In this document: one piece after another, positions 1 through 30,078 of the stretch
Numbering within the stretch: position 1 is the stretch's first letter
Layout of the letters: every line of letters starts with the position of its first letter
Source of the DNA: Naegleria gruberi
Lineage: Eukaryota
Assembly: GCA_000004985.1 (NCBI GenBank)
Contig: GG738894.1
Length of the DNA stretch: 64,000 bases
Reading direction: 5' to 3' (one strand)
Notes under the pieces: model-generated
The model's database searches: none
Seen by the model: the letters and a program-made list of their open reading frames with translations, nothing else
What the model was told of the DNA's origin: nothing
Program-made: the position numbers and the translations under genes

Positions 1-290
1 CAAACCCAAACCCAAACCCAAACCCAAACCCAAACCCAAACCCAAACCCAAACCCAAACCCAAACCCAAACCCAAACCCAAACCCAAACCCAAACCCAAA
101 CCCAAACCCAAACCCAAACCCAAACCCAAACCCAAACCCAAACCCAAACCCAAACCCAAACCCAAACCCAAACCCAAACCCAAACCCAAACCCAAACCCA
201 AACCCAAACCCAAACCCAAACCCAAACCCAAACCCAAACCCAAACCCAAACCCAAACCCAAACCCAAACCCAAACCCAAACCCAAACCCA
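1..290. repeat. Telomeric repeat array, about 48 tandem copies of CCCAAA (G-strand TTTGGG), at the start of the window. It marks the physical chromosome end.
   Basis: Perfect 6-nt periodicity caaacc from position 1 to 290, ending abruptly at cgactaaggt. C-rich strand reads 5'->3' on the top strand, as expected for a left telomere. Confidence 0.9.
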
Positions 291-1094
291 CGACTAAGGT
301 CAGACCCAACATTTTGACTTTTATTCATCTTAATTAATTATCTCAATAAATACTCATTATAAATCAATATATTATATATCAATATACTCCAAATTGAATA
401 TATAATCATATTATAACATAATGTTACATCATTATAATGACTTATATAAGTTAATTTCATATAATAGATTAGACAATTAGAATATCAATGAAAACATTTC
501 AAAATCATTTCAAATCAATATATCATCTTATAAATCATGTCAATAACAAAATATATCAGTTTCAAATACTTTGGTATCATTTCAAGAAATTTACTATTCA
601 ACTTGTCAACTGACCTATACTAACATTGAAGATAGAAATCTATACCACTTCAATTCACTTCCAATACATATATACATGATAATTAAATACATTAATATCA
701 TTTTGACATTCATCCATATCATACATGGTACATGGCTGATCCACTTGATACCTATAGGGATGTGACAATGACATCCACTATACAGATCATCATGAAACTG
801 GTACAGGACCTTACTAATGGTGAATAAACACTACTGTATCAGTTTCATGACAATTTGAAATCATTCAACATGTCAGGAGTGTAATCATGGGAATTATAAA
901 TGTCAAGATAATCAAATCATATTAATTTTAAAATCTTTCAATTACAATATCATATATAGATCAATTAATCATGGTATATCAATAATTGGTATTGAATTTC
1001 ATATCAATTCATTCAAACCTTAATGACCTATCCTTAGATGACCAACTCAATTTTAAACTATCATGAATCATATAACTATTGATATCATTGTGTT
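291..1094. other. Subtelomeric, extremely AT-rich non-coding region
   Basis: No convincing ORF. Only one low-complexity 64-aa ORF. Very low GC; lies between the telomere array and the assembly gap. Confidence 0.5.
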
Positions 1095-9034: not shown

Positions 9035-12000
9035 CTAAGGATGTGTTAGTGAATGTTGTAAAACCTTCTCAATTTCATTTTTAAGCTTATTGAGCATGAT
9101 TGGCTTGTAAAGAACGCTGTCAAATCCAAATTCCTTTAGAGTTTCATAAGTTTCCCAAATATTTGCTGTAATACCAATGATTGGAGTTTTGCTATTTTGC
9201 CCTTGTCGAATCTGGACACTTGCATCTTTTCCATTCATAATTGGCATTAATAGATCCATAAGAATAACCTCATATTTTGATTGTTTACATTTCTCGACTG
9301 AATCCAAGCCATTCTCACAAGAATCCACATTTTCATATCCAATCAATTTCAACAATTTGATAATAACTTTACGATTGATATCATTATCTTCCACAACGAG
9401 GGCTTTCTTCTGAGGAGGTTCAATAGATTTCTCTAAAATATTGGTTGGTGTTAAAAAGAGGTTCGAACTACTTGGAGGAATAATATTCGTTTCACAAGGG
9501 AATAATTTGATATAGTGTAACAGGACATCTACCAACTCTCTAAATCTAACAGGTGATGAAATATAACGTTTGTCATTAAATTGTCCTCTGGCACTAATTG
9601 GAATTGCTAAACATGGTATATTTGAAAAATCTTCAACAGTATTGGCATTATACAATACAATATTATACTTGGTCTTGTCTGCATTCTTACTTATGGCTTC
9701 CAAATCAGATTCGAAAACATTTGAATTTGGGAAGAGGAATTGTAAGTAGGGTTTGATTACTGAACCTGTGAGTGTATTGTGTTTGTCAAGGAGATAAAAT
9801 TCAGGAGTGCAATGATGAATCGACTCGTGCAGTTCCTTTGATAATACTTCAATAGTTCTTTGATTGGATTCAAAGAATTCTGATGAATAATCATCAAAAC
9901 CTGAATAATCCCCAACTAAATTCTTGAGTGGTATTATTATTGTTACCTTGGTATATTCGTCAACTTTACTCTCAATAAATATTCTACCTCCCATCAAGTC
10001 GAGTAAACTCTTTGAAATACTGAGTCCATATCCGTTATTCTCCTTGAAATCTCTTTCCTCATCTTCAATGGCAATATCATTGTTGGTTAAGGACTTTTTG
10101 TAGTATTGCTCAAATATTGGATTGGAACTGTTTTGTATGGTTGAATTGAAAGTTTCTTGATCAACCTTGTAAAATGGCTTTTTAAACAAGTCCTTAGTTT
10201 TGGCCTCTGAAATACCACAACCTGTATCTTTACAAATAAACTTGACATAGGTGTATTCAGGATCTTTCTTGAGGCCAACACGAAGCAAATCCTTATTTGT
10301 GCATTGCTCTGCAGTTAATAGGACGTGTCCCTTGTCAGTATACTTGACTGCATTGCTAAGAATGTTCATTAGTATTTGACAAACTCTCGATTGGTCTCCT
10401 AAAAACATGTACTTTGGTAAGGACTTGAAATTATAGAATGATCCTATGGAAATTCTCTTTTCCTCTGCATTTCTAATGAATACTGCAATCATTGATTCCA
10501 AAATATCGACTAGGTTAATCTTCATTTCATTAAGTTTGATTTTTCCAAGTTCTAAATTTGTCAGTTGTAGTGAAGTAGAGAAAATGTGCAATAATAAATT
10601 AGAATTGTAGTAAATATCATCTAGTGTCTCTCTAAATGATTGACTGTTAAATATTTGACTCTTTTCACTGTTCACAGTCTCATGTTTGAGTAATTGAATG
10701 GAACATAAAATGCCCTGAAGAGGATTTCTGGCTTCATGACTCAAGTTACCAATAAATTTAGTTTTGGCTGTGTTGACAATTTGCTGTTTTAACAATTCCA
10801 ATTGTTTTCTTGCATTATCATCACTTTGTTGTTCCATAATTCGAGAGAACATGTAAGTTCCCACAGTTAGAATGAAATGCAAACCAATAATCTCCAAAAT
10901 TTTGGTTTTCATTTCTTCAAGAATGTATTCATCCATCTTACCTCTAGCATCATACTCCCAAATGTAGGAAATGTAGATTGAAAGACAACATCCAAAAGTT
11001 GCTGTAGCTGTATTAATAAGAGAAAATATTCTCCTATAATAGAAAATATTAACAGATATGATAATTGGGAAAGTTTGCAAAATCCAAAATGGAAAATTAG
11101 GTCCATAGTACGTTTGCACTACAATCCTTCCCATGATTGCAATCAGAGTCCTACAAATATTAATAAGTTCTAGTTTTGGTATTGATTTAATAGTTACTGT
11201 AGAGCATAAAGTATCAATAGTAATATTGAACGACATTTCCACAACAAAACCCAACCAGAAAACGAAATATCCATGTGTAACTGGATTAATAAAAACTAGT
11301 GAAACATAAATAAGTAGGATTGCAATAGCAATCATTAATTTAGGATTTGCTTTTGCTAACTGTTCATGCCTAGATTTGAATTTAATAATTAGAGCTTCAT
11401 CATCCGATAAACTAAACCTCCTGTCTTGTGGTAGAGGTAGAGAAGAAGATGGTGAAGAATCGGGTGTTGAAACAGTTGAAGTACTATTTTCTTCCACTGA
11501 TGTTTTTGTGGCTGTATTGATAGATTGTAAATAGGTAGAAACTTCATGATTATTCAATAGAGAGGACATGAAGAATTTCATAAATCCTCCAGTGAGAGTT
11601 TTCCAATAATATGATGCTGGGTAAGAATTTTCTTCTTCCATATGTTCCGAAGCTTCATTAGCTTCTTGATTGGTGAGAATTAGACTTTCACATGTTGATG
11701 ATACATCACTGCTATCTACTTGACTTGAACTGGATGTTCTTTTTAATTGTTGTTGTTGCTGTTGGGGTGGATGTTGTGAATCTCCTAGAGAGCTGATATG
11801 ACTACCAGAACCAACACCACTCGTTGATTCATATGGTGATGAATTATTGGTAGCACTCGATGTTCTAATCACAATAGGTTCCAAAATACTGTGATCTGTT
11901 AATGATTGATCCTGTTCATAGAAGAGTATAAAACTGTCCTTTCTTTTTTGTTTGTTTCCGACAATCACTTGGTCAATATTACTCAATAATTCATGATGAG

Positions 12001-13039
12001 TTGTTGAAGAACCACTTCCAGAACGTGAGGAAGTATGAAAAGTATAACTATTTGGGAGAAATTGAGTTAGGGATGAGTTAGAATTTGAGGAGGAGATGGA
12101 ATTGGATGCCTTTCTTGTGGTAGGAAAATGGTGAGGAGAAGATGATGGTGTTGTGTTTTGATATGAAGATGAGGATGATCCAACAACATTCGTTGAAGCA
12201 TATTGTCCGTGAATACTTGTTGAATAATTATTATTATTATTATTATTTGACTCGTAGGTGTGCTGTTGTTGTTGTTGTTCTGGATTACTTGTCCAACTAT
12301 TGGCACTATGGCATGATAGGGGTGAAATGCACGGAGATTGATGTTGTGCTTGATGATGGCACTGATGATTATTGTTAGACATGAGGGAAATATTAATACG
12401 AGGTATGGAATGTCTTGCTTGTTGTATATGATGTAAATTCAAAACTTCATATTGAGCATCGTTGGAATCACTAATATCATCAGTAAATTCTTCTTGTTGT
12501 GATTCCTCACCGTTCCTTAAAGCAACATGTTCATGTTGTTGTTGTTGATGACCAGATGAATATTGGTGCCCAAAACAAAATTCATCCAAACCATGTGTAT
12601 TCAAAGAACAAGATTGGGCTTCCTTATCTAGTTGATTGGTTGGAATTGTACCACTACCGCTCGGCATGCTACTTTTTTTGTTAACTGTTTCATCTTCCGA
12701 CATGCTCGCTTGAATAAGATCATTTTGTTGTTCATGTGTGTTGTTGTTGTGTGGAGAGAAGTAAAGCAAAGAAATGGCAGCATCTTGTTGTTGATGAAGA
12801 GTACTTTCATGATGAGGGAGCGGAGAAGCATCTCTTGTGGTAGTATTCGCATCTTGTGGTGCTGATTTGGTGTAAATAATACTAAAAGTGTGTTCATCAT
12901 GTATTGGCGATGATGTTCGACTGGGGTTATCATTGATGTTATCTTTCCGTTCTTCCTTGTTGTTGTGTGTTGTTATTACTGGTTGTTGTGGTGTTGGTTT
13001 AGTATCATGATTGTCCTCACCACCTTCACGTCCAACCAT
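9035..13039 (-). CDS. Hybrid sensor histidine kinase with HisKA, HATPase_c and a C-terminal receiver. It has a polytopic membrane sensor region and a Q/N/H/S-rich N-terminal extension of about 500 aa. Intronless, 1334 aa.
   Basis: Single 1334-aa ORF. H-box IGNLSHEARNPLQGI, N-box NILSNAVKYT, G-boxes DTGCGIS and GYGLSISKSL. Receiver with VVEDNDINRKV...ILMDLLMPIMNG...K. Several hydrophobic helices upstream of the H-box. ATG 13039 in an A-rich context. Confidence 0.85.
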   Translation of the reverse strand: MVGREGGEDNHDTKPTPQQPVITTHNNKEERKDNINDNPSRTSSPIHDEHTFSIIYTKSAPQDANTTTRDASPLPHHESTLHQQQDAAISLLYFSPHNNNTHEQQNDLIQASMSEDETVNKKSSMPSGSGTIPTNQLDKEAQSCSLNTHGLDEFCFGHQYSSGHQQQQHEHVALRNGEESQQEEFTDDISDSNDAQYEVLNLHHIQQARHSIPRINISLMSNNNHQCHHQAQHQSPCISPLSCHSANSWTSNPEQQQQQHTYESNNNNNNNYSTSIHGQYASTNVVGSSSSSYQNTTPSSSPHHFPTTRKASNSISSSNSNSSLTQFLPNSYTFHTSSRSGSGSSTTHHELLSNIDQVIVGNKQKRKDSFILFYEQDQSLTDHSILEPIVIRTSSATNNSSPYESTSGVGSGSHISSLGDSQHPPQQQQQQLKRTSSSSQVDSSDVSSTCESLILTNQEANEASEHMEEENSYPASYYWKTLTGGFMKFFMSSLLNNHEVSTYLQSINTATKTSVEENSTSTVSTPDSSPSSSLPLPQDRRFSLSDDEALIIKFKSRHEQLAKANPKLMIAIAILLIYVSLVFINPVTHGYFVFWLGFVVEMSFNITIDTLCSTVTIKSIPKLELINICRTLIAIMGRIVVQTYYGPNFPFWILQTFPIIISVNIFYYRRIFSLINTATATFGCCLSIYISYIWEYDARGKMDEYILEEMKTKILEIIGLHFILTVGTYMFSRIMEQQSDDNARKQLELLKQQIVNTAKTKFIGNLSHEARNPLQGILCSIQLLKHETVNSEKSQIFNSQSFRETLDDIYYNSNLLLHIFSTSLQLTNLELGKIKLNEMKINLVDILESMIAVFIRNAEEKRISIGSFYNFKSLPKYMFLGDQSRVCQILMNILSNAVKYTDKGHVLLTAEQCTNKDLLRVGLKKDPEYTYVKFICKDTGCGISEAKTKDLFKKPFYKVDQETFNSTIQNSSNPIFEQYYKKSLTNNDIAIEDEERDFKENNGYGLSISKSLLDLMGGRIFIESKVDEYTKVTIIIPLKNLVGDYSGFDDYSSEFFESNQRTIEVLSKELHESIHHCTPEFYLLDKHNTLTGSVIKPYLQFLFPNSNVFESDLEAISKNADKTKYNIVLYNANTVEDFSNIPCLAIPISARGQFNDKRYISSPVRFRELVDVLLHYIKLFPCETNIIPPSSSNLFLTPTNILEKSIEPPQKKALVVEDNDINRKVIIKLLKLIGYENVDSCENGLDSVEKCKQSKYEVILMDLLMPIMNGKDASVQIRQGQNSKTPIIGITANIWETYETLKEFGFDSVLYKPIMLNKLKNEIEKVLQHSLTHP

Positions 13040-15866: not shown

Positions 15867-18800
15867 ATGGCCAAACAATCAAATCAAAGCACCAATGGCT
15901 TTTATTTATCCGTCATGATGATGATCGTGTTTCTATCATTGTGTTGTATGATTGAAAATTCTCTACAACAAAATTTTGTCACCTTCAATTATTATCCAAA
16001 TGAAGGGAAGCTTTTCTCCTCCGATAGCAAATTCGTCAATGTTCAGGGGAGTATTCAAAGTGGTTATTGTAATGCCCTACTGAGTGATTTTGAGCAGTAT
16101 GGAGCATCGGCTTTTTGTTTTTCAGACAATGCTGGTCTGACCATTTATTTGGGATATGGATATTCATTGAGTGGGATTAGATCAGGAACGGACAGTGATG
16201 GAAGATTTGTGAAAATTGAACCAGCTTCTTCTGTTGATTTCAGTGCTGCACTAGATCAGTTAACTATTAATCCTTCGAGAAATTCATATATGATTGTGAG
16301 TGCTGTGGGAAGCTATGTTAATCTGCCAGGAGCTCGATTAAGCTATTCCGTTATTACTAGTGATGCAAAAGTGAATCAATATTTGGCAAAACGTTATCAA
16401 ACTCAAAATCCAATTATTTTCTTTCCATTAACTGAACTTTCTGGTACCTCATTACAAATACAACTTTCTGCTAATTCGTCTGATTGGAATTTGGCGAGAT
16501 CAGCTTCTACGATCATTAAAAATGTTTCGTATGATAGGAGGACATCGTACAACTATGGAAAATCATCAACAAAGTGCGTAGACTATAATTGTTTTATAGA
16601 GACAATGGTAAACGAGACACTTGTGGATAATCCTTCAGTTAATTATTATTTTAATGGAAATTTAGCATCAAGTTTGAATAACTTTCAAATGGCAAAGTTT
16701 ACACCAGCAATTTTTAAATTGACATCTAGTTCTACAACTTTGAAAACTGTTTTCACCACAAACGAAACTTTAAACACTGACATAATAACTGATTCATTTT
16801 CATTATTAACTGGTTATTATTTGAAGAATGGTGATAAAATTCACTCTCAAAGTCAACCGATCACTATCATTTTGGAATCAAGAGACACAAATGCTTTCCC
16901 ATTGGAAGCTATTACTTCTCTGAATTGGTATTTGAGTGTTTCAGCAAGTGTTGACCTTTCTCAATATTCCAACAAGAGATATTTGACATTACCTGCCAAC
17001 ATATTCTCTTCCAATCAAGTTTTGGTAAAAGCAGAGGTCAATTTCAACGATGGAACGCAAATAACTCTTTCAACCACTTTATATATTCAGAATATTGGAA
17101 CTTTAACATTGACTATGGATCCAACAAGCCCATATCTCACATCGGGGGCACAAGTCAATTTGATAACTTATGTAAATGTACCTACAGTTACTATTCAATC
17201 CGTTGTGTATGAAGATAGCGCATCGAAATACATTTCTCTTGATTCAATCAAATCAGAGTTTAATACTAGCTCTATAATTTCCGCAACACTTAAGGCAGAT
17301 ACTCCAGGATCGCTTAGTTTTATGCAAACTATCAAGCTCACTTCAGGAATATCTCTCTATAATTATATTTCAACAAAGGTCATGCCTAAATATCCACTTA
17401 TTTCTGGTTGTTCTGTTTTGCCAAGTTATGGAATCGGTTATGAAGATTTGTTTGGAGTCTCATGTCCAATGGCTCTTGACCAAACCAAGATTTCATCCGT
17501 TAGAGTTGAAGTCTATCAAGACACCGAAAAGCTTTTCACCCTTTTCAATACCAAAACTGCAAACTTTGCAACAAGATTGCCTTTAACCTTAGCAACAACT
17601 AGTAGTTATGTACAGGTAACAATTACAGATATTTTTGGATATTCACACTCGTCTGTCAAATTTTATTACTCTGCTAGTATGAATCAAAATTATCCTACAA
17701 CACTGTTGGGCAGGATTGAAAGGATTCAATTCTATTTGAGCCAAACAAAGGCAAGAAACTTCCAAACGGCAACTAATTATGGTATATTGTTAAACTTGTT
17801 AACAAATGGCATGCTCACAAGTGCTACCGCAATTGAAATTTCTCAATATTCAGTACAATGGAACTCATTCTTGGATTATTTTGTATCTGAATTGGATATT
17901 CTAAGAAGAACCATTTTTCACAGCTCTGTCTACGATAGGGCTGTACCATTATTGGCACCTCTACTTAGAGAAATTGTTGATTTTGCCGATAAGGTTTCGG
18001 CATACACAACTTTAATATCAACAAAGAAACAAGTGCTTGTACAAAATGCAGAATTTTTGATTAGTAATGACAAATCAGGATGGCTATCTACGAGGGATCG
18101 TGCAGCTATTGTCAGAATTTTGGGATCAGTCACTGCTTCAGATCAAACAACGTTTTGGAATGTTACCTCATTAACAGATATTTCAGATTTCAGCACAGCT
18201 TTCAAATCACAACTTTCCAAGTTAGATTCCATGTTTAACAGAGGATTAGATTTATCTCCTTTTGGATTTAATAAGCAAATTAGCAAATTTGATACACTAT
18301 TCGATTTATCATCAGCCCAGAGAAGCATTTCAGGTTTGACAGTTCAAATGCCAGCATTAACTCTCAATGATTATGGTTATCCAGCCAATAGCTATTCTCT
18401 CTTACTTACAAGTTATGATATTTCAACTCAAGTATCCTCAAAGAAATTTAGTCTAAGTACTGGAAACTATTCAAGGTTTTGTGGAAATACACTCTTTTCA
18501 ATTGATGTTGGAAGGAGTGATGGAAGTATTTTGGGAGTTTCAGGACTCTCATCACCTATTATTCTCACAATGGATTTATCTCTTGATAGTTCTTTAGCCA
18601 CTTCAATTAGTAGTGTTAATTTTACTTGTAGATATTTGGCTGAAAACAATATGTGGTCTACGAGTGGTGTGGCAACAGAGGTCGTAACAGTTGGTTCAGC
18701 ATCAGTTAAAGTCAGATGTAAAAGTAACCATCTCAGTACCTTTACAGTTTTTGCAGATGATGTTTATGTCTCCACAACTAATAATTCAACAACCTCAAAT

Positions 18801-20036
18801 ACCGATAAGGTAATACAATCAGGATTATCGCAAGGAGAAATTGCTGCTGCTGTGGTAGTGCCTGTCGTTGTTGTTTTAATTATTACTGTAATTATTATTG
18901 GAATTGTTATTTTCCTGTTATTGAGAATGAAGAGAAAGAAAAAAGCTAATACAGCAGAACCTAAAAAGATGAAGAAAGAAATCAATGCTTACCAAGCTGA
19001 TTCAGTTAAATATGACGACCTAAAGATTGAAATGAGCAGTAACATGTTTATCTCTGATTACAAATCGCTCAATTCGAATACTATTCCTTCTGCAACTTCT
19101 GTTCAATCAACAGAGACACCAACGAGTTATAATGTTACAACTCCATCCACATCTACGAATGTCATTAACAAGAAATATGAAATTTTGGAAAAGATTGGTG
19201 CAGGAGGTTTCGGCGCAGTTTTTAGAGCTAGAAACTTGTTTTTCAATCATGGATCCAAAACTGTCAATGATTTGGAATATTATGCCATTAAGAAGATTCA
19301 ATTATCTGGTCTGTCCGAGTTGAATGACAAATTCAAGGAAGCTGTCAACATGTTCAAGATTCGTCACGAAAATTTAGTATCCTTGGAAGATGCAGTGGTT
19401 GATGAATCAACCAATTCCCTCTATCTAGTAATGAAATTTTATGGAAATGGAGATTTGGATCATTTTGTAAAGAGTAAGAGAATGCTTCCAGAACAAGTAC
19501 TTAAACAAATCATTGTTCAGGTTTGCAGAGGTTTGAAATATTTGGAAGAAGAAAGAGGTTTAATTCACAGAGATATCAAACCATCCAATGTATTTGTTGA
19601 ATATTTCGATTCTGAAAGAGATAACATTAAGGTAGTAGTGTCTGACTTTGGTTTAGCCAAAGAGTCGAACATGATGACTTCAGTTTCGTTTGCAGGAACA
19701 CCATTTTTCATGAGTCCACAAGCATTAATTGGTTCCAAGTACAGTTTCAATGCTGACATATTTTCACTAGGTTGTAGCATCTTTTTAATGATTACACACG
19801 ACATGTCCTCATCCATTGCTCAATTATACTTCCAAAAAGCAGGAAATCAAGGTCAGGTACATGAATTTATCAGAGACAATATTAAGAAGGCATGCCAGAA
19901 TAGTAGAACAATTTCATACAGTGATGAATTTATCGATATTTTATTGAAATTAATGGAATTTGATGCAGATACTAGACCTAATGCAGCAAAAGTTTTGGAA
20001 ATGATTGAAAATTCAGTGGAAATTACAACTGTTTAA
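15867..20036 (+). CDS. Receptor-like Ser/Thr protein kinase. Signal peptide, large glycosylated ectodomain ending in a GPS/GAIN-like motif, single TM, cytoplasmic kinase. Intronless, 1389 aa.
   Basis: N-terminal hydrophobic signal. About 980-aa ectodomain with many N-x-S/T sites. Near the membrane, FTCRYLAENNMWSTSGV...VKVRCKSNHLSTFTVFA resembles the GPS (C..W..C.C.HL..F) signature. TM is AAAVVVPVVVVLIITVIIIGIVIFLLL. Kinase motifs GAGGFGAV, AIKK, HRDIKPSN, DFGLAK. Confidence 0.75.
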   Translation: MAKQSNQSTNGFYLSVMMMIVFLSLCCMIENSLQQNFVTFNYYPNEGKLFSSDSKFVNVQGSIQSGYCNALLSDFEQYGASAFCFSDNAGLTIYLGYGYSLSGIRSGTDSDGRFVKIEPASSVDFSAALDQLTINPSRNSYMIVSAVGSYVNLPGARLSYSVITSDAKVNQYLAKRYQTQNPIIFFPLTELSGTSLQIQLSANSSDWNLARSASTIIKNVSYDRRTSYNYGKSSTKCVDYNCFIETMVNETLVDNPSVNYYFNGNLASSLNNFQMAKFTPAIFKLTSSSTTLKTVFTTNETLNTDIITDSFSLLTGYYLKNGDKIHSQSQPITIILESRDTNAFPLEAITSLNWYLSVSASVDLSQYSNKRYLTLPANIFSSNQVLVKAEVNFNDGTQITLSTTLYIQNIGTLTLTMDPTSPYLTSGAQVNLITYVNVPTVTIQSVVYEDSASKYISLDSIKSEFNTSSIISATLKADTPGSLSFMQTIKLTSGISLYNYISTKVMPKYPLISGCSVLPSYGIGYEDLFGVSCPMALDQTKISSVRVEVYQDTEKLFTLFNTKTANFATRLPLTLATTSSYVQVTITDIFGYSHSSVKFYYSASMNQNYPTTLLGRIERIQFYLSQTKARNFQTATNYGILLNLLTNGMLTSATAIEISQYSVQWNSFLDYFVSELDILRRTIFHSSVYDRAVPLLAPLLREIVDFADKVSAYTTLISTKKQVLVQNAEFLISNDKSGWLSTRDRAAIVRILGSVTASDQTTFWNVTSLTDISDFSTAFKSQLSKLDSMFNRGLDLSPFGFNKQISKFDTLFDLSSAQRSISGLTVQMPALTLNDYGYPANSYSLLLTSYDISTQVSSKKFSLSTGNYSRFCGNTLFSIDVGRSDGSILGVSGLSSPIILTMDLSLDSSLATSISSVNFTCRYLAENNMWSTSGVATEVVTVGSASVKVRCKSNHLSTFTVFADDVYVSTTNNSTTSNTDKVIQSGLSQGEIAAAVVVPVVVVLIITVIIIGIVIFLLLRMKRKKKANTAEPKKMKKEINAYQADSVKYDDLKIEMSSNMFISDYKSLNSNTIPSATSVQSTETPTSYNVTTPSTSTNVINKKYEILEKIGAGGFGAVFRARNLFFNHGSKTVNDLEYYAIKKIQLSGLSELNDKFKEAVNMFKIRHENLVSLEDAVVDESTNSLYLVMKFYGNGDLDHFVKSKRMLPEQVLKQIIVQVCRGLKYLEEERGLIHRDIKPSNVFVEYFDSERDNIKVVVSDFGLAKESNMMTSVSFAGTPFFMSPQALIGSKYSFNADIFSLGCSIFLMITHDMSSSIAQLYFQKAGNQGQVHEFIRDNIKKACQNSRTISYSDEFIDILLKLMEFDADTRPNAAKVLEMIENSVEITTV

Positions 20037-20367
20037 TGAACATTGTATATTTTCTACAGTTCAAATAAATAGTAGATTTATCAAACTACTATTTGCAAAT
20101 GTTATTCAAAAGAACAACAACTATGTTTCCAATTCCTAGTCCTTGTTCATTATTTAGAATGCAAGGAATTATCTGTTCTACATCCAGAACTATCAAACTA
20201 ACCACCATAGACAAGTGATATTTTAAACTCATAGTCGAACAGCAGTTCTCTGAAAACTTCATTGTAATACATTGATTGAAAGGGGCGGTCCAATTTTGTA
20301 TGTCGTTTCTTCTTTATTTAAACGAAAGCAGTTCAGGCTAACGAATACAACAACAATCAAAAAAAAA

Positions 20368-21531
20368 ATGTCGAAACTCAGAATTATTCTCGCTGTTGTG
20401 CTTGTTTGCATGGTAGCAGCATGTTGTATTGCCGAAACCACAGAAAGTGGAGAGTGGAAAGTTAAACTTCGTAATGAAGATTGTAAGAGAGAAATGAAAT
20501 TCTCCTTGTCAGATTCGAATAAGGTTGCCGAAATTGAATCCACTGGTGGATGTAAATCAAAGGACCCAGAAGGACTTATTCAAGGTTCTATTGCTAATAT
20601 TGAATTCCAATTTAATGTCAAGAAGGTGCCACTTGTCAGAATGAAAGCTCACACTGCTGTCAAAGTTGATAATGGACCAACCAAAGTTGTTAACATGGGT
20701 GGTTTGTTTGGATTCGAAAGATTATTCGAATATATTAACAATGATGGAAAGGATGGTTATCAAGTTAATGGAACAGACACTATCGTTCGTTCAATTGACT
20801 TGTCAACTGTTTCTTGGTCTCAAATCACAGTTCAAAAGACAGTTTTGAATGGTTCTTCAAATTCTTTCATTTATGAAGCTTCTTCCCAAGCAACTATTGC
20901 CAATTGGTGTACTTTCAAAATGTCAGCTGTCGTTTCTACTAGTGAAGTTCAAGTTACAAGCAATAAGACTCTTTCTCGTTCTGGAGTTATTCAAGTTTTG
21001 ACTCCTTCCTCACTCAAAGTTAATGTTGAATTGACAAATATTCAATATACTGCTGGTAATTCCTTATTAGGTATTAGTTCTATCACTGCTTATCGTGGAA
21101 ATTTGAAAGAAAAACCAACTCAAGATAAGCCAGTTGAAGAAAAGCCAGATGATGCTTCTCCTGATCAAGCTGTTAATCAATTTGATGGAGATGTCACTGA
21201 TCAAACTGGTTCTTCAGCAGTTGTTTTGCCAAAAGCATTCTTCTCATTCCAAACATTTGTTTCTAAATATCCAACTAGCTCACCAACAAGTATTTCTAGA
21301 TCTACTTTGGGAGTTTCACCATTCGTTGATGCTAACGAAGATTCTGTCAAGCAAATCAGAGATGATTTTGACACTAAGGGAAAGGTAAAGAGATTTTATG
21401 TCTCCTTATTGGAAAGAGTTGATAATTTCGTTTGGGATCCGACTGTTGGATCAAGCACATCTGGAAGTAATGGAATTTGGAGAGGATTCAGTGTTGTTTT
21501 GATGATTTGTTTTGCTTTCTTCATGTTGTAA
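20368..21531 (+). CDS. Secreted, probably GPI-anchored, cell-surface protein of unknown function
   Basis: ATG at 20368 in an A8 context. N-terminal signal MSKLRIILAVVLVCMVAACCIA, S/T-rich body, C-terminal hydrophobic tail GFSVVLMICFAFFML typical of a GPI-attachment signal. Confidence 0.5.
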   Translation: MSKLRIILAVVLVCMVAACCIAETTESGEWKVKLRNEDCKREMKFSLSDSNKVAEIESTGGCKSKDPEGLIQGSIANIEFQFNVKKVPLVRMKAHTAVKVDNGPTKVVNMGGLFGFERLFEYINNDGKDGYQVNGTDTIVRSIDLSTVSWSQITVQKTVLNGSSNSFIYEASSQATIANWCTFKMSAVVSTSEVQVTSNKTLSRSGVIQVLTPSSLKVNVELTNIQYTAGNSLLGISSITAYRGNLKEKPTQDKPVEEKPDDASPDQAVNQFDGDVTDQTGSSAVVLPKAFFSFQTFVSKYPTSSPTSISRSTLGVSPFVDANEDSVKQIRDDFDTKGKVKRFYVSLLERVDNFVWDPTVGSSTSGSNGIWRGFSVVLMICFAFFML

Positions 21532-21728
21532 AATAAAATTACTTTCTTGTACATTAAAACATTAAATATGTCTTAGAATAAATTATTACAAGAATTATTA
21601 TAATTTTTGGATAAATTTGGAAAGTGAATTGAGAATGGAAATTGGAGATTGATTCTGCTAACACCTGTTTAAAAATCACCTCCAGAAAAACGCCTAAAAT
21701 CTTTTTGTCATCATTCATTTAACAAAAA

Positions 21729-22472
21729 ATGATTCGACAACTTCAGGTAGCTTTCGGCTTGTTTATTTGCTGTGCATTTCTTCTGCATGTTGCACTGTGC
21801 ATTCCACCTGGACAAGTTGTGAACATTAACAATTGGTATCTTACCCTTCCAATAGGAAGCTATAAGAATCCACAAAACATCTACCAGCCGAATCTAAACA
21901 CATTCGAAAGTGATCCGTATTTTGTTACTGGAAACGATGGAAACAGCATTAGATTTAGAGTTCCAATCCATAAACAAACTGTTACAACATCTGGAAGTAG
22001 TTATCCAAGAACTGAGTTGAGAGAAATGGATTCGTCTAATCCTTCCAAGACGAAAGTTGCTTGGACGAATTCAGATAAAGGAGTTCATACCATGATTATT
22101 GATCAGGCAATCACTCACCTCCCAATCAAGAGAAATCGACTTGCGGCAGGTCAAATCCACGATGACAATGAATTTGTCATTATTATTCAATTGACAGGAA
22201 GTCAACTTTTTGTAAAAACAAATAAGAATGCAAATGCCAAAGTTTTAGATAGTAACTATCAATTAGGCACTAGATTCCTCTTGAAAATCGAAGGATTTGG
22301 TGGAATTACCAATATTTATTATAATGACATGACGAAAGCTGCCTATTCCTATGAATATTCGTATAAGAATGCCTATTTCAAAGCAGGATGTTATTCGCAA
22401 TCAAATTGTGATTATGAACAAGAATTGTGTACAGACACTTCGTTTGTTGAGATTGTTTATGGAAATATTTAA
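21729..22472 (+). CDS. Secreted polysaccharide-lyase family 7 (alginate lyase 2-like) protein
   Basis: Signal peptide, then the three PL7 signature blocks in order: YPRTELREM (R-S/T-E-L-R-E), QIHDD (QIH) and YFKAGCYSQ (YFKAG-V/I-Y-N/S-Q). The 247-aa size fits a single jelly-roll PL7 catalytic module. Confidence 0.6.
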   Translation: MIRQLQVAFGLFICCAFLLHVALCIPPGQVVNINNWYLTLPIGSYKNPQNIYQPNLNTFESDPYFVTGNDGNSIRFRVPIHKQTVTTSGSSYPRTELREMDSSNPSKTKVAWTNSDKGVHTMIIDQAITHLPIKRNRLAAGQIHDDNEFVIIIQLTGSQLFVKTNKNANAKVLDSNYQLGTRFLLKIEGFGGITNIYYNDMTKAAYSYEYSYKNAYFKAGCYSQSNCDYEQELCTDTSFVEIVYGNI

Positions 22473-22543
22473 TATTACGGTACCAAAAAAGTTCTCCATT
22501 CCATTTTCAAACTGTAAAAGGCAAAAAAAACAAAGATAAAAAA

Positions 22544-23254
22544 ATGGCTCAACAAGTCGTCGTCGTTGCTTTTGATTCTCACGCAGGAAACAAACATTTA
22601 ATGTCCTTTTTCATCTTGATGACAATTCTATTGACAATATTTTGTCCAGCAACAAGTGCGGGATTGATCGGAGAAGTGAATTCACAAGAAGAAAATACAA
22701 CAAGTGGAATTTCTATATTGACACTTCCTAATACTCAATCAATTGTTGGAAATTCAACAGTTGCCTTTTCAGTGGTTAAATTATCGACCAAGTATACTTT
22801 GAGTGAAAATGGATTTGTAAGATTGGACCTTAGTGGACTTTTAAGGGGAGATTCGAATTTTAAGGAAATTTACTTGACAAGCGTTTATCCATTTGAATCA
22901 AATTCATTGGAATTTGATTATTCATTCAAGAAGGAAGGTCCTTATTCATCTGCTACTTCAAATATTCCTGCAAGTTCAACAATTATTGCTCAGATTTCAA
23001 TTCCAGAAAGTTTACAATCATCTGCATTTATTTCACTTTATATGGATATTAAGTGTTTACAAACAAAGTGTGATTTCCAGGTTTCTATTGAGGATGGAGT
23101 TTCTGTTGCTATAGGAGCTGTCATTGGCTCCATTCTTGGTGCAATTATTTTGGTAATTATTGGAATTATGGTTTTGGTCATTTGGTTGAGAATTTATTCA
23201 CCAAAATATAGGACTGATGAGGATAAAGTTAAATTAACATCGACACATGTTTAA
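22544..23254 (+). CDS. Type I single-pass membrane glycoprotein, unknown function
   Basis: N-terminal hydrophobic segment, ectodomain of about 170 aa with N-glycosylation sites, TM VAIGAVIGSILGAIILVIIGIMVLVIWL, short cytoplasmic tail. Confidence 0.45.
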   Translation: MAQQVVVVAFDSHAGNKHLMSFFILMTILLTIFCPATSAGLIGEVNSQEENTTSGISILTLPNTQSIVGNSTVAFSVVKLSTKYTLSENGFVRLDLSGLLRGDSNFKEIYLTSVYPFESNSLEFDYSFKKEGPYSSATSNIPASSTIIAQISIPESLQSSAFISLYMDIKCLQTKCDFQVSIEDGVSVAIGAVIGSILGAIILVIIGIMVLVIWLRIYSPKYRTDEDKVKLTSTHV

Positions 23255-23352
23255 GTGTTGGAATTTAAATTATTATCATTTTCAAATATTTTCCAATATT
23301 TTGTAATATTTTGTAATTTTGTAAAATTATTAAATAAATTTAAATATTAAAA

Positions 23353-24197
23353 ATGTCGCAACCAATCATTAGATATGCCTTCCTACATGGTTATGCTTCC
23401 TCTCCAAGCACTCGGAAGGGTATTCATCTCAAGAAATTCTTCTCAGAACATGGCATTGAATTGGTGGTTCCAGATTTGAATATTCCTTCGTTTGAAGAAT
23501 TGACAATTTCAGTGTTTTAAATTATTTGGAAACGGAAATATTATTAGATTGTGATAATGATGGCAAAGAGGTACATAATTTTATGATTTTTCTTTTTAAA
23601 TATTTAAATATTTGATCATCAATTTATTAAAATATTTAAATAATGTTTAAATATTCGGAATTGCTAAATTTCATGATGGAATATTATCATCACTATCAAC
23701 AGATTAAATGGAGATTAATTGCAAGTTCTCTGGGAGGCATGATTGGAACGAGATTTGCTGAGCTTCACCCAGAAAGAGTTGATTCTCTCATTCTCCTTGC
23801 CCCAGCTTTTAATACTGAAAGTAGATGGAGAAGTATTTTGGATATTGAAGAGTGGGAAAGAAATGGAACGAGAGAAATTTATAATTACAAACTTGGATCT
23901 GTGAAACATGTGAAATTTGACATTTTTAAAGATTTAGTTAATCATCCAGCATTTCCCATTCCAAATTGTGTATTAAATCAGGAAGGGAAGGGTATTAAAT
24001 TGTTTATTATACATGGAGAACAAGATGATGTTGTGAAAATTGGCACAACTGATCTGTTTTTGGAAAGATTAGTGGAATTGAACTTTGATTTGGAGAGAAA
24101 TGTTAAAGTTTTCAGAGTTCCAGATGGACATGAACTTGTGAGTGAGGAAACTTTGAATTTGATTGAAAAGTTGGTGTTGGATAATTTACTATTGTAA
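23353..24197 (+). CDS. YqiA/UPF0227-like alpha/beta-hydrolase (esterase), with at least 2 exons
   Basis: Exon 1 MSQPIIRYAFLHGYASSPSTRKG...PDLNIPSFEELTIS. Downstream exon IKWRLIASSLGGMIGTRFAELHPERVDSLILLAP...IIHGEQDDVV matches the YqiA layout (HGF-SSP, GSSLGG nucleophile elbow, C-terminal HG). Intron boundaries between about 23515 and 23700 are not resolved unambiguously. Confidence 0.5.
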
Positions 24198-28015: not shown

Positions 28016-30078
28016 TTGCACAATATAGAGATGAAGTATCAAAGAAACAAGTTACTGTCATTATGTTTATTGGCCATTGTTGGATTAATGTTCATGATAG
28101 GAGGATTGAATGGACAGAAGGATTGTCCCTCCTATCGTTCCAAACACTACTTTCCAAGGATGAGATATGAAAATGATGGCACCACCACTCGATCGGAATA
28201 TTTGACAATGAGGGATGGTGTAAAGATTGCCTGTGATTTATATTTGCCATACAGGGCTGTTAATGAAAATCACAGATTGCCAACATTGTTGCACGTGACC
28301 AGATATTACAGATCTTACAAGGTGAATTGGCCATTTAATTATCTTGTTGGAGATAAGATTAGTATTAATGGAATTCCATTCCCAAAATTCTTGGCTCGTG
28401 GATATGCCATTGTTAGTTGCGATACTAGGTATGTTTTACATATAATATAACTTATTAACATAGTATCAAAAGAGGTTCTGGTGTTAGTTTCGGAAAGAGA
28501 TTATACGATTTCCACAGAGATGAAGTTCAAGATTTCAAGGAAGTTCTCGATTGGATTACCAAACAAAAGTTCAGTAATGGAAAGATTGTTTCTACTGGTA
28601 TTTCGTATGATGGCATGGTCACTGATTTCTTGACCTCTTTGAATCATCCAGCTTTGGTTGCTGTTTCTTCAATTTCAGGACCATTCGATATCTATAGGGA
28701 TACAATCTATCCTGGTGGTATTTATCAAAAGTCATTTATTGATTATTATTTGAAATTTACACAAACTGTCGAGTCTGGAGAGATGATTACTAGATCTGAT
28801 TTGTGTGCTGGTTGTGCTCCAGAAACACTCAAGGAAAAGATTATGGACAAGTTGGCTAAACTTCTCCTCGGTGGTGTTAACCCTGTGGATTCCAATGATT
28901 TGGAAACTATGAGAAAAGCCATTGAATCACACAAGGACTCTACTGACATGTTGGATGTTGTTCATCATCTTGAAAAAGGTATCAATAAGATTGTTACCAC
29001 AGACAAGTTCACCTATGAAATGGAAAGAGATGGACCAATGAGAGTCATTGCTGATAATAAGAAGAGAATTCCAATATTAGTATTTGGTGGCTATTATGAA
29101 AGTATGGTTTTGAATAGTGTTGTAAAAAGATTCTACTCTTTATATCACAAGGACAGCAGATTGATTATGGGACCTTACAATCACGGTCTCAAGGTAATCA
29201 ACTCACCTTACTCAGAAACCACCACACCATGTTTTGATGCCTTTGAGGAAATTATGAGATTCTTTGATCATCATTTAGGATTGGAGGAAGATCTTGGACT
29301 CGAAAATGAAAAACAAGTTCACTACTATTCTATTGGATCTGAAAAGTGGTTCTCAGTTGACAGTTGGCCACCAAAAGCTGAAGAGAAGGTTTTACATTTG
29401 AGTAATGCTGGAGCCCTCGTATCCGAGAAGACTGAATTGAATCATGTTTTAAAGCTTAATATGGAGGAAGAAACACTCATTGACTGTAAGTGGAATATGT
29501 TAACTTCACTCTTCCAAAAAGCTACCAAATACTCTGCAACCTTGTCCTCTCCTCAATTCTCCAATGGAAAGCTCAATTATATCTCACAACCATTGAGTGA
29601 AGATTTGGAAATTACTGGTTATCCTCACCTCACTGTTGAATTATCTGCCAACAATCGTGATGGATTGATTTTTGCCTATTTGCAAGAAGTTGACACCAAG
29701 GGAACTGTTAACTTTGTCATGGATACTCAATTGAGACTCGTCCATCGTAAATTGAATTTACACAGAAATACCAGTGGACTCATTGATGTAGTTCCACATC
29801 ATACCTTCTACGTGGAGGATCGTCAATATTTAGAACCAAACCAAAAGACCACCATTCAATTATACTTCCCAGCTGTTTCCTACACTGTCAAGAAGGGTCA
29901 CTCTCTCAAGCTTTCCCTCTTCTCATTCGATAAGATTAACTTTAAGATTTTTGAGAATGAATCTGATCTTTCCAGTGAGCTCTTCCTTCACAGTGCCTCT
30001 CTCCATCTTCCAATCGTTCACTCTCGTCCAGAATCTTCTTCTTTACATTCTGATAATTCTAATAAGGATGAGCTCTAA
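28016..30078 (+). CDS. CocE/NonD-family (peptidase S15, Xaa-Pro dipeptidyl-peptidase-like) hydrolase, two exons
   Basis: Exon 1 28016-28428, a 44-nt GTATGT...AG intron at 28429-28472, exon 2 to 30078. Splice restores ...CDTRGSGVSFG. GISYDGM nucleophile motif (GxSxG), N-terminal signal/TM anchor, long C-terminal beta-sandwich region as in CocE/NonD. Confidence 0.7.

What the first reader, a model, noticed from the sequence alone, without database searches (positions are those of the whole stretch)
21729..22472. PL7-type alginate lyase in a eukaryotic chromosome, a candidate horizontally acquired gene
All three PL7 catalytic blocks (RTELRE, QIH, YFKAG-Y-Q) are intact behind a eukaryotic signal peptide. 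PL7 lyases are overwhelmingly bacterial. The gene has host-like codon usage and an A-rich start context, so it is integrated rather than contamination. The substrate (alginate or poly-uronate from bacterial or algal prey) is unknown.
Basis: partly seen in the sequence, partly recalled or inferred. Interest (0 to 1): 0.55.

Follow-up and report, generated by a model that had tools for sequence, protein, structure and literature searches.

The report
Truncated bacterial-type alginate lyase in Naegleria
The soil amoeba Naegleria gruberi carries a small family of alginate-lyase genes of bacterial type, probably used against slimy bacterial polysaccharides, and the copy in this window is a real, integrated gene that has lost its normal tail end through a 208-base deletion.

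Summary
The ORF at 21729..22472 (+) is real. It is Naegleria gruberi NEG-M XP_002672853.1, deposited as "predicted protein". It is a clear PL7 lyase (Pfam PF08787, 116.8 bits against a 29.7 cut-off). The RTELRE, QIH and YFKAGCYSQ motifs are intact, and the model superposes on the poly-guluronate lyase ALY-1 (TM 0.92). It is integrated, not contamination: it lies 21.7 kb from a telomere, among eukaryotic genes, with host-like codon usage.

1. This copy is truncated. A ~98%-identical haplotype encodes 291 aa. NEG-M lost about 208 bp, removing the terminal β-strand and a hydrophobic anchor-like tail. The ORF now ends in 8 codons of former 3'UTR.
2. It is not a singleton. NEG-M has two paralogues, and a further copy occurs in an environmental Naegleria.
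3. A second, unidentified eukaryote carries three copies that are 65-73% identical to CPR-type bacterial PL7s.

Bacterial origin is well supported. NJ trees do not resolve whether there were one or two transfers. PL7 transfer into eukaryotes is already documented (a diatom, fungi), so this is a new member of a known kind. Activity and substrate are untested.

The parts
21729..22472 (+). Complete ORF of the NEG-M allele (247 aa plus stop); N. gruberi XP_002672853.1 / NAEGRDRAFT_71919; single exon
   Evidence: Pfam PF08787 E = 1.6e-33
21729..21800 (+). Predicted signal peptide (residues 1-24, MIRQLQVAFGLFICCAFLLHVALC)
   Evidence: Hydrophobic stretch, mean KD 2.23; homology to mature bacterial enzymes starts at residue 24-25; modelled as a separate helix 2-22. 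Inferred, because no signal-peptide predictor was available
21801..22445 (+). Native part of the PL7 beta-jelly-roll catalytic domain (residues 25-239), Pfam profile positions 1-211 of 225
   Evidence: 98.7% identical at DNA level to haplotype L001, with 6 synonymous and 3 nonsynonymous differences
22008..22025 (+). Motif A, R94-T-E-L-R-E99 (RXE(L/V)R)
   Evidence: Sequence; R94, E96, L97, R98 and E99 are invariant in 123- and 66-sequence alignments; motif definition from PMC11960938
22152..22160 (+). Motif B, Q142-I-H144 (Q(I/V)H)
   Evidence: Sequence; Q142 and H144 invariant
22374..22400 (+). Motif C, Y216-F-K-A-G-C-Y-S-Q224 (YFKXGXYXQ)
   Evidence: Sequence; F217, K218, G220, Y222 and Q224 invariant (Y216 invariant, nearly invariant)
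22446..22472 (+). Deletion junction (about 22446-22449) and neo-C-terminus VEIVYGNI plus TAA, read from sequence that is 3'UTR in the intact haplotype. About 208 bp present in L001/L002 are missing here (last 52 codons, stop and about 50 bp of 3'UTR)
   Evidence: blastn and alignment A1; translation of the intact form; Pfam coverage 211/225 against 225/225; tail modelled as an 8-residue strand against a 14-residue native strand

Best explanation
The ORF is a polysaccharide lyase family 7 (PL7) gene of bacterial origin. It is fixed in the Naegleria gruberi nuclear genome and has been duplicated there. The normal product is inferred to have three parts: a signal peptide, a ~230-residue beta-jelly-roll catalytic domain, and a short Ser/Thr-rich linker ending in a hydrophobic C-terminal segment of the GPI-signal or tail-anchor type. 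That would put the enzyme on the amoeba's surface or in the endocytic lumen. By homology it would cleave poly-uronates such as alginate by beta-elimination, using the Arg (motif A), Gln/His (motif B) and Tyr (motif C) residues. The closest characterised enzymes are the poly-guluronate lyase ALY-1 and AlgAT5. The likely biological role is breaking down uronic-acid exopolysaccharide of bacterial prey or biofilms. The copy in this window is a derived allele. A ~208-bp deletion removed the last 52 codons, which held the 14-residue terminal strand, the linker and the hydrophobic tail, along with the stop and part of the 3'UTR. The ORF now ends after 8 UTR-derived codons. If still functional, it would be a soluble secreted enzyme with a shortened substitute strand. 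Otherwise it is a recently disabled allele.

Shown: family membership, motifs, predicted fold, integration, the deletion, the paralogues, and bacterial nearest relatives.
Inferred: signal peptide, anchoring, enzymatic activity, substrate, biological role, and direction and number of transfers.
For: Family and fold: Pfam 116.8 bits; PDB sequence hits at 3e-46 and 7e-41; AF2 model pLDDT 95.6, superposing on 1uai over all 223 residues with TM 0.92 and rmsd 1.6 A. Motif residues are invariant across 123 homologues.

Integration: a telomere at 1-~290; neighbours are N. gruberi proteins with kinesin, PH, Ser/Thr-kinase, acyl-CoA oxidase and BTB domains; GC3 0.298 against 0.23-0.36, CAI 0.646 within the neighbour range, and the same A-rich start context. 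An independent metagenome assembly shows the same gene between the same flanking genes.

Selection: 6 synonymous and 3 nonsynonymous differences between haplotypes, pN/pS 0.13.

Family expansion: P0006 (56% identity, 417-kb scaffold) and P0008 (45%, 507-kb scaffold) in NEG-M, and P0007 in an environmental Naegleria.

Deletion. The intact form models with strand 242-255 and a low-confidence tail 260-291.

Anchor-like tails: the last 15 residues have mean KD 2.5-2.9 in P0002, P0007 and P0008.

Bacterial origin: apart from the three copies in the second eukaryote, all non-Naegleria hits that could be placed by name, domain architecture or context are bacterial-type (most are unnamed). Named ones include Levy-, Davies-, Roizman- and Gottesmanbacteria, Parcubacteria, Pendulispora, Streptomyces, Catellatospora and Kribbella. 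Bacterial gene neighbourhoods were confirmed for P0025, P0026 and P0283. Only the Naegleria clusters exceed 50% identity among 1.84 billion representatives.

Role: one close bacterial homologue sits next to a UDP-glucose/GDP-mannose dehydrogenase and a GT2/beta-helix synthase-like gene, which hints at a bacterial poly-uronate substrate. There is a precedent hypothesis for Acanthamoeba (PMC7641382).
Against: No expression or activity data exist for any Naegleria PL7, and no paper was found on them. The window allele lacks 14 of 225 profile positions. Its substitute tail scores -10 bits against the strand profile, against +17 to +26 for native strands, so it may be unstable or inactive. The AF2 placement of the tail as a strand is biased, because the MSA aligned it to the native strand. 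The deletion is seen only in the NEG-M reference and could not be checked against reads. Naegleria's position in the NJ trees is unstable because of its long branch, so donor identity and the number of transfers are unresolved. Pseudomonas alginate lacks G-blocks (background knowledge), which fits poorly with a poly-G-type enzyme. The real substrate may not be alginate. GPI anchoring against a transmembrane tail was judged from hydropathy only.
Confidence: 0.72

Rival explanations
1. The window copy is a non-functional, recently disabled allele (an incipient pseudogene). Loss of the terminal beta-strand destabilises the jelly roll, and the paralogues or the other haplotype carry the function.
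For: The Pfam match stops at 211/225 while all relatives reach 225. The native strand has 14 residues and the substitute has 8. The substitute tail scores -10 bits against +17 to +26 for native strands. The deletion also removed about 50 bp of 3'UTR, leaving only 71 bp before the next gene's ATG. The locus is subtelomeric and structurally polymorphic.
Against: The ORF is still open with all catalytic motifs. pN/pS is 0.13 over the retained 239 codons, although that mostly reflects history before the deletion. AF2 models a complete jelly roll with the neo-tail as a strand at pLDDT ~98, and Foldseek aligns all 223 residues of 1uai. The neo-tail is in the top 1.5% of random read-through peptides for resemblance to the strand.
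Confidence: 0.35
2. The 208-bp deletion is an assembly or sequencing artefact of the NEG-M reference, and the real NEG-M gene is the 291-aa form.
For: The truncated form occurs on a single contig in the whole collection. A paralogue from the sample that yielded the intact form is 100% identical to NEG-M's, so that sample holds a very close relative.
Against: The junction leaves a clean ORF with no Ns or low-quality signs nearby; the only N gap is at 1095-3284. The two haplotypes also differ by SNPs, by other indels in the downstream gene and by a 1.47-kb presence/absence segment, so they are genuinely different haplotypes. The missing 208 bp holds no obvious tandem repeat that would collapse an assembly (seen directly in alignment A1).
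Confidence: 0.1
3. The gene is bacterial contamination or a mis-assembled bacterial fragment, not a Naegleria gene.
For: The PL7 family is overwhelmingly bacterial, and the gene has no introns.
Against: It lies inside a 499,907-bp scaffold that begins with a telomere, between eukaryotic genes at eukaryotic spacing. GC, GC3 and codon usage match the neighbours. The same arrangement occurs in an independent assembly. It is at most 50% identical to any bacterial protein. It carries eukaryote-style signal and anchor sequences.
Confidence: 0.01
4. The PL7 was acquired once in an ancestral heterolobosean and inherited vertically, with losses in other lineages. The Naegleria copies and those of the second eukaryote would then be orthologous descendants, not independent transfers.
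For: The second eukaryote's only named neighbour-gene hit is Acrasis kona, a heterolobosean, at 33%. By raw distance the Naegleria clade is nearest to the second eukaryote's sequences (0.80). In the narrower tree both clades branch next to each other at the base of the CPR-type cluster.
Against: A joint eukaryote clade appears in only 37/300 and 16/300 bootstraps. The second eukaryote's proteins are 65-73% identical to bacterial ones but only 44-50% identical to Naegleria's, and they nest inside the bacterial cluster with P0025 as sister in 135/300 replicates. They lack the Naegleria-specific C-terminal extension. No N. fowleri, N. lovaniensis or Acrasis homologue appears among the best 120 hits.
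Confidence: 0.2
5. The enzyme's substrate is not alginate but another uronic-acid polymer, such as glucuronan or a CPR-type or other bacterial capsular poly-uronate. 'Alginate lyase' would then be only a family label.
For: PL7 includes glucuronan lyases (7nde hit). The closest bacterial homologues are in CPR and soil bacteria not known as alginate degraders. One sits beside a nucleotide-sugar dehydrogenase and a GT2 synthase-like gene. N. gruberi is a freshwater and soil organism with no access to brown algae (background knowledge).
Against: The closest characterised enzymes (ALY-1 at 34% structural-alignment identity, AlgAT5 at 40%) are alginate lyases, whereas the glucuronan lyase is only 21% identical. 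The QIH and YFKAGxYxQ motifs are the alginate-lyase consensus.
Confidence: 0.3

Closest known systems
ALY-1 poly(alpha-L-guluronate) lyase of Corynebacterium sp. (PDB 1uai) and AlgAT5 (PDB 5zqi), single-domain bacterial PL7 enzymes
   Same: Same Pfam family, same three catalytic motifs and a single ~220-residue jelly-roll domain. The model superposes on 1uai with TM 0.92 and rmsd 1.6 A (34% identity), and 5zqi is 40% identical.
   Different: The Naegleria protein is encoded in a eukaryotic nucleus with a eukaryote-style signal peptide. The intact form has an added Ser/Thr-rich linker and a hydrophobic C-terminal tail. The window allele lacks the native terminal strand. Its activity and specificity are untested.
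PL7 proteins of CPR/Microgenomates bacteria (Candidatus Levy-, Davies-, Roizman- and Gottesmanbacteria) and allied unnamed metagenomic bacteria
   Same: They are the closest sequence relatives outside eukaryotes: 44-48% identical to the window protein and 58-69% to the second eukaryote's copies. They have the same domain length and end in ...NYGEVxIYxLxVTH.
   Different: They have bacterial gene contexts. Many carry LysM, dockerin or CBM32-type (PF00754) modules and none has a C-terminal hydrophobic anchor. None of them is biochemically characterised as far as the searches show.
[quoted passage not shown]
   Same: A bacterial PL7 was acquired by a eukaryote, gained a signal peptide and was then duplicated. 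Some family members acquired a C-terminal membrane anchor.
   Different: The diatom genes derive from marine Vibrio-like CBM32-PL7 genes and expanded to 91 copies that support growth on brown-algal alginate. Naegleria has 3-4 single-domain copies from a different (ALY-1/CPR-type) branch, lives in fresh water and soil, and has no demonstrated alginate use.
Fungal PL7 lyases (Paradendryphiella salina PL7A/PL7C; Trichoderma PL7A glucuronan lyase) and red-algal PyAly
   Same: They are eukaryotic PL7 enzymes with the same fold.
   Different: They are only 13-21% identical and belong to different PL7 branches, so the Naegleria genes were not inherited from, or shared with, these eukaryotic groups.
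Predicted alginate lyase of Acanthamoeba castellanii (noted in PMC7641382)
   Same: A bacterivorous free-living amoeba carries an alginate-lyase gene proposed to act on bacterial alginate biofilms, which is the same ecological logic.
   Different: The organism belongs to a different supergroup (Amoebozoa). Its family and relationship to the Naegleria genes were not tested here, it does not appear among the top hits, and it is also uncharacterised.

Membership tests
Polysaccharide lyase family 7 (Pfam PF08787 Alginate_lyase2) | Sequence match to the family profile above the curated threshold | tested here: met
   116.8 bits against a cut-off of 29.7, E = 1.6e-33; PDB PL7 hits down to 3e-46
Polysaccharide lyase family 7 (Pfam PF08787 Alginate_lyase2) | Three conserved catalytic blocks: RXE(L/V)R, Q(I/V)H and YFKXGXYXQ (definition from PMC11960938) | tested here: met
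   RTELRE 94-99, QIH 142-144 and YFKAGCYSQ 216-224 lie in invariant columns of 123- and 66-sequence alignments
Polysaccharide lyase family 7 (Pfam PF08787 Alginate_lyase2) | Beta-jelly-roll fold matching solved PL7 structures | tested here: met
   AF2 pLDDT 95.6 and pTM 0.88; Foldseek gives 1uai TM 0.92 and rmsd 1.6 A, and the top 42 hits are all PL7 or alginate-lyase entries. This is a predicted fold, not a solved one
Polysaccharide lyase family 7 (Pfam PF08787 Alginate_lyase2) | Complete catalytic domain including the native C-terminal beta-strand (NYGEVxIYxLxVTH) | tested here: not met
   The window allele covers profile positions 1-211 of 225. P0002, P0006, P0007, P0008, P0010 and P0012 cover 1-225 and P0009 covers 3-225. 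The strand is replaced by 8 UTR-derived residues scoring -10 bits. The intact haplotype form meets this feature
Polysaccharide lyase family 7 (Pfam PF08787 Alginate_lyase2) | Beta-eliminative cleavage of alginate or another poly-uronate | not testable with these tools
   This needs a recombinant enzyme and an A235 or NMR assay. No published data were found
Horizontally acquired bacterial gene in a eukaryote | Physically integrated in the host chromosome with host-like composition | tested here: met
   Telomere, eukaryotic neighbours and a 499,907-bp scaffold; matching GC3, CAI and start context; the same locus in an independent assembly
Horizontally acquired bacterial gene in a eukaryote | Closest relatives outside the recipient lineage are bacterial, and other eukaryotic PL7s are more distant | tested here: met
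   bacterial contexts; fungal and red-algal PL7s at 13-21% identity
Horizontally acquired bacterial gene in a eukaryote | Phylogeny nests the eukaryotic clade within bacterial sequences with support | tested here: inconclusive
   The Naegleria clade is monophyletic in 300/300 replicates, but it is a long branch with unstable placement; the best partner appears in 93/300. The second eukaryote's clade is nested in the CPR-type cluster. Only NJ with a Kimura correction was possible, because no ML software was available
Horizontally acquired bacterial gene in a eukaryote | Patchy distribution: absent from close relatives and other eukaryotes | tested here: inconclusive
   No N. fowleri, N. lovaniensis, Acrasis or other named eukaryote appears among the best 120 hits of two searches, and only Naegleria clusters exceed 50% identity in 1.84 billion representatives. 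Individual genomes could not be queried directly
GPI-anchored or tail-anchored surface protein (intact Naegleria PL7 forms) | N-terminal signal peptide plus a C-terminal hydrophobic segment at the extreme terminus, preceded by small residues | tested here: inconclusive
   P0002, P0007 and P0008 end in 14-20 hydrophobic residues (mean KD 2.5-2.9 over the last 15) after S/T/N-rich linkers, and the tail is low-confidence in AF2. No GPI predictor was available. P0006 has a short polar stretch after its hydrophobic segment. The window allele lacks the tail altogether

The most novel reading that the evidence does not exclude
Naegleria and a second, possibly heterolobosean, amoeba each acquired PL7 lyases from the same CPR/Patescibacteria-type donor pool. 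This would point to a recurrent physical association between ultra-small CPR bacteria and bacterivorous amoebae. Naegleria then converted the enzyme into a surface-anchored tool for stripping poly-uronate matrix from prey. The NEG-M allele would be a natural experiment in which a deletion turned the anchored enzyme into a secreted one by recruiting 3'UTR sequence as a replacement beta-strand.
Probability: 0.12. Interest if true: 0.6.

Novelty: new member of a known kind. Interest (0 to 1): 0.4.

Why it matters
If active, these enzymes would give Naegleria a bacterial-style way to break down uronic-acid exopolysaccharides. That is relevant to how free-living amoebae graze on biofilms, including those in water systems where the pathogenic relative N. 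fowleri lives. It would also add a heterolobosean case to the few documented PL7 transfers into eukaryotes. The apparent CPR-type affinity of the closest bacterial relatives is unusual for a donor group and is worth a proper phylogeny. In practical terms, the reference NEG-M gene model is a truncated allele, so anyone expressing this protein should use the 291-aa haplotype form or a paralogue.

Tried and rejected
- Contamination was rejected on the telomere, the neighbours, codon usage and an independent assembly.
- ML phylogeny was not possible because no tree software was installed. Biopython NJ bootstrapping timed out, so I wrote a vectorised NJ. The Naegleria placement stayed unstable.
It gave outgroups but no donor.
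- Naming the closest unnamed bacterial relatives failed: a cluster look-up of ten NCBI-sourced proteins returned no organism names. Context look-ups confirmed bacterial neighbourhoods but gave no taxonomy.
- Identifying the second eukaryote gave only a 33% hit to Acrasis kona for one neighbour gene, which is suggestive at most.
- P0006 could not be located on a contig.
- Literature searches found nothing on a Naegleria PL7. These covered the locus tag and accessions, Naegleria with alginate or polysaccharide lyase, and the metagenome accessions.
- A citable source for the QIH-versus-QVH specificity rule was not found in the review checked, so I make no specificity claim from that motif.
- I considered whether the neo-tail is a relic of an ancestral C-terminus. 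I rejected this because its Glu codon spans the deletion junction and the matching L001 sequence is non-coding, with a TAG in that frame.
Full report
**1. What is at the coordinates**

Window 21729..22472 (+) is an uninterrupted ATG-to-TAA ORF of 247 codons. It matches Pfam PF08787 (Alginate_lyase2, the PL7 family) at E = 1.6e-33, 116.8 bits against a curated cut-off of 29.7. It also matches solved PL7 enzymes at E = 3.2e-46 (AlgAT5, 5zqi) and 6.6e-41 (ALY-1 poly-guluronate lyase, 1uai).

- RTELRE, residues 94-99, nt 22008-22025.
- QIH, residues 142-144, nt 22152-22160.
- YFKAGCYSQ, residues 216-224, nt 22374-22400.

Their key residues are invariant in alignments of 123 and 66 homologues. They fit the published PL7 catalytic consensus RXE(L/V)R / Q(I/V)H / YFKXGXYXQ (PMC11960938).

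The first 24 residues are a basic residue followed by a hydrophobic stretch (mean Kyte-Doolittle 2.23). They end just where homology to mature bacterial enzymes begins, which fits a signal peptide. This is inferred, because no predictor was available.

**2. Whose genome, and is the gene really part of it**

The window opens with about 290 bp of perfect (CCCAAA)n, a telomere. Exact-sequence look-up identifies the ORF as Naegleria gruberi NEG-M XP_002672853.1 / EFC40109.1 / NAEGRDRAFT_71919 / D2VSF2, deposited as "predicted protein". It lies on a 499,907-bp scaffold, and the neighbouring ORFs are N. gruberi proteins EFC40106, EFC40107 and EFC40112.

The neighbours carry kinesin, PH, hybrid histidine-kinase, Ser/Thr-kinase, acyl-CoA-oxidase, BTB, alpha/beta-hydrolase and PepX domains.

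The PL7 ORF has GC 0.358 and GC3 0.298, against 0.23-0.36 for the neighbours. Its CAI is 0.646 (neighbour range 0.645-0.777) and its RSCU correlation is 0.80. It has the same A-rich start context as most neighbours.

Contamination is excluded.

**3. The copy in this window is truncated**

The protein's 90% cluster holds a second member, P0002. It is 291 aa long, identical in layout up to "...CTDTSF", and then different.

Its contigs (L001 and L002, metagenome run ERR1078381) are collinear with the window:
- L001 1-3113 matches window 17077-20207 (97.9%).
- L001 3106-3878 matches window 21674-22446 (98.7%).
- L001 4089-5078 matches window 22450-23463 (94.9%).

The NEG-M paralogue P0008 is found with 100% identity in the same sample. 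L001 is therefore a within-species haplotype.

The base-level alignment shows that about 208 bp of L001 (3879-4088) are missing from the window. These are the last 52 codons (DNYAEVQIYNVSTTHDYSTNRTFDSFATSNVVRRNSSTIGMLIFFLFTFFLF), the stop codon and about 50 bp of 3'UTR. The window ORF therefore runs on into former 3'UTR and ends as VEIVYGNI*.

Because all three paralogue-like sequences and all bacterial relatives keep the "NY[AG]EVxIYxLxxTH" strand, the 291-aa form is ancestral and the NEG-M form is derived.

The consequences are as follows:
- The Pfam match stops at profile position 211 of 225 in the window protein, whereas P0002, P0006, P0007, P0008, P0010 and P0012 cover 1-225 and P0009 covers 3-225.
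- AlphaFold2 models the intact form with a 14-residue terminal strand (242-255) followed by a low-confidence tail (260-291, pLDDT below 50).
- The window protein models as the same jelly roll (pLDDT 95.6, pTM 0.88), with the neo-tail as an 8-residue strand (239-246).
- That model superposes on all 223 residues of 1uai (TM 0.92, rmsd 1.6 A).
- The modelled strand is not independent evidence, because MAFFT had aligned the tail to the native strand in the input MSA.

Scored against a profile of the native strand, the neo-tail gets -10.2 bits, against +16.8 and +25.8 for native strands. It is still in the top 1.5% of 7,216 stop-free 8-mers translated from this window's non-coding DNA. It keeps the invariant Glu and much of the hydrophobic alternation. 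Whether the truncated protein folds and works is therefore open.

Over the 239 shared codons the haplotypes differ by 6 synonymous and 3 nonsynonymous changes (pN/pS 0.13). The gene was under purifying selection at least until the deletion.

**4. A small gene family with anchor-like tails**

NEG-M has two more PL7 genes on other scaffolds: P0006 (424 aa, 56% identity, 417-kb scaffold) and P0008 (299 aa, 45%, 507-kb scaffold). The ERR1078381 sample holds a further one, P0007 (295 aa), that is not in the NEG-M protein set.

P0002, P0007 and P0008 end in 14-20 strongly hydrophobic residues at the extreme C-terminus, after Ser/Thr/Asn-rich linkers (mean KD 2.5-2.9 over the last 15 residues). P0006 has a long Asn/Ser/Thr-rich linker and a hydrophobic segment near its end.

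This is the layout of GPI-signal or tail-anchored surface proteins, judged from hydropathy only. The window allele has lost the tail, so it would be soluble if it is made at all.

**5. Origin**

An exhaustive HMMER scan of 1.84 billion representatives finds 1,650 relatives (868 at E <= 1e-10, 212 at E <= 1e-30). Only the Naegleria clusters exceed 50% identity.

The best non-Naegleria hits are 44-50% identical. The named ones are mostly CPR/Microgenomates (Candidatus Levy-, Davies- and Roizmanbacteria), plus Pendulispora and Streptomyces. Unnamed relatives that I inspected have bacterial neighbourhoods:
- a Crp regulator;
- an RND pump, a histidine kinase and a GH18;
- a nucleotide-sugar dehydrogenase and a GT2.

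Solved fungal and red-algal PL7s are only 13-21% identical. The Naegleria genes do not belong to those eukaryotic PL7 groups.

**6. A second eukaryote**

Three of the top hits (P0009, P0010, P0011; 239-243 aa) lie on three contigs (55, 147 and 12.6 kb) of one JGI metagenome (3300062347). They sit among protein kinase, F-box, AP-5 sigma, RING, RGS, START, LIM, P450, metacaspase, Kelch and RRM genes, so this is a eukaryote.

For one neighbour gene the only named relative is from Acrasis kona (Heterolobosea) at 33%. That is a weak hint about what the organism is.

These three proteins are 74-75% identical to each other. They are 70-73% identical to unnamed bacterial-type proteins and 65-69% to Davies-, Gottesman-, Roizman- and Parcubacteria, Catellatospora and Pendulispora. 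They are only 44-50% identical to the Naegleria proteins. They lack the Naegleria C-terminal extension.

**7. Phylogeny**

Only neighbour-joining (Kimura-corrected distances, 300 bootstraps) was possible.

| Data set | Naegleria clade | Second-eukaryote clade | Joint eukaryote clade |
|---|---|---|---|
| Top 122 sequences, 221 columns | 300/300 | 300/300 | 37/300 |
| 170 domains from the wider representative sample, 217 columns | 300/300 | 297/300 | 16/300 |

In the wider tree the second eukaryote nests inside the CPR-type bacterial cluster, with P0025 as sister in 135/300 replicates. Naegleria is a long branch with no stable partner (best 93/300). Its smallest raw distances are to the second eukaryote (0.80) and to P0025, Davies-, Levy- and Roizmanbacteria (0.81-0.84).

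My reading is that both eukaryotic groups derive from the same bacterial PL7 branch (ALY-1/CPR-type). Two separate transfers fit the data better than one, but this is not settled.

**8. Likely function**

By homology the enzyme would cleave poly-uronates by beta-elimination. The closest characterised relatives are alginate lyases.

For a freshwater and soil bacterivore, the plausible substrate is bacterial uronic-acid exopolysaccharide rather than brown-algal alginate. Two observations are in line with this:
- One close bacterial homologue sits next to a UDP-glucose/GDP-mannose dehydrogenase and a GT2/beta-helix gene.
- The same anti-biofilm idea has been proposed, without testing, for an Acanthamoeba alginate lyase (PMC7641382).

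No activity, expression or localisation data exist. All of this section is inference.

**9. Novelty**

No paper in the searchable library mentions this gene or a Naegleria PL7. Transfer of bacterial PL7 genes into eukaryotes is documented for Nitzschia sing1, which has 91 copies, some with C-terminal transmembrane anchors (PMC11960938). Fungal PL7s are known too (PMC6710412), and heteroloboseans are rich in HGT, with 1,253 supported cases in Acrasis kona (PMC11589745).

This is therefore a new member of a known kind. It has three modest twists: the apparently CPR-type affinity of its closest bacterial relatives, the anchor-like tail acquired in Naegleria, and the polymorphic truncated allele in the reference genome. 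I score interest at 0.4.

Noticed in passing
window 1-3284: The window starts with about 290 bp of perfect (CCCAAA)n, a TTTGGG-type telomere. A very AT-rich subtelomere follows (GC 0.11-0.17), with an assembly gap of 2,190 Ns at 1095-3284. The PL7 gene is therefore subtelomeric, about 21.7 kb from the chromosome end.
   Followed up: partly
window 20208-21673: A 1.47-kb segment is present in NEG-M but absent from the ~98%-identical L001/L002 haplotype. It holds an ORF (ATG at 20368, ends 21531, 387 aa) with a signal peptide and a C-terminal hydrophobic tail and no Pfam family. No flanking direct repeat longer than 6 bp was found. This is a presence/absence polymorphism immediately upstream of the PL7 gene.
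   Followed up: partly
window 22544-23254: The downstream gene (236 aa, a membrane protein with a type-I-like layout and no Pfam family) differs from the L001 haplotype by in-frame indels (for example VNSQEE occurs only in NEG-M) as well as SNPs. Both genes flanking the PL7, and the intact PL7 itself, encode predicted surface proteins, so this is a fast-changing surface-protein neighbourhood.
   Followed up: partly
window 9035-13039 (-) and 28615-30078 (+): There is a 1,334-aa hybrid histidine kinase (HisKA, HATPase_c and a receiver domain) and a PepX/S15 (X-Pro dipeptidyl-peptidase, CocE/NonD-type) protein. Both belong to bacterial-flavoured families and lie in the same subtelomeric region, so they are possible further transfer candidates.
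   Followed up: no
L012 250-1137 (ENA ERZ929261 contig k127_453837): P0007 is a PL7 gene from the same metagenome run as the intact haplotype. Its Kimura-corrected distance to NEG-M paralogue P0008 is 0.37 (roughly 70% identity), and it is absent from the NEG-M protein set. Either PL7 copy number varies between N. gruberi strains, or a second Naegleria species is in the sample.
   Followed up: partly
L014 333-6408 / L015 276-6351: In an unnamed bacterium (GCA_964641355.1) a close PL7 homologue (P0283) lies near a UDP-glucose/GDP-mannose dehydrogenase and a 970-aa GT2 plus beta-helix (NosD-like) protein. That looks like a poly-uronate exopolysaccharide synthesis locus and hints at the natural substrate of this PL7 branch.
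   Followed up: no
L003, L004, L011 (JGI 3300062347 contigs Ga0606064_0015, _0121, _0653): An unidentified, gene-dense eukaryote whose genes appear as long uninterrupted ORFs has three PL7 genes at separate loci. They are 65-73% identical to CPR-type bacterial PL7s. The only named relative of one neighbour gene is from Acrasis kona (33%).
   Followed up: partly
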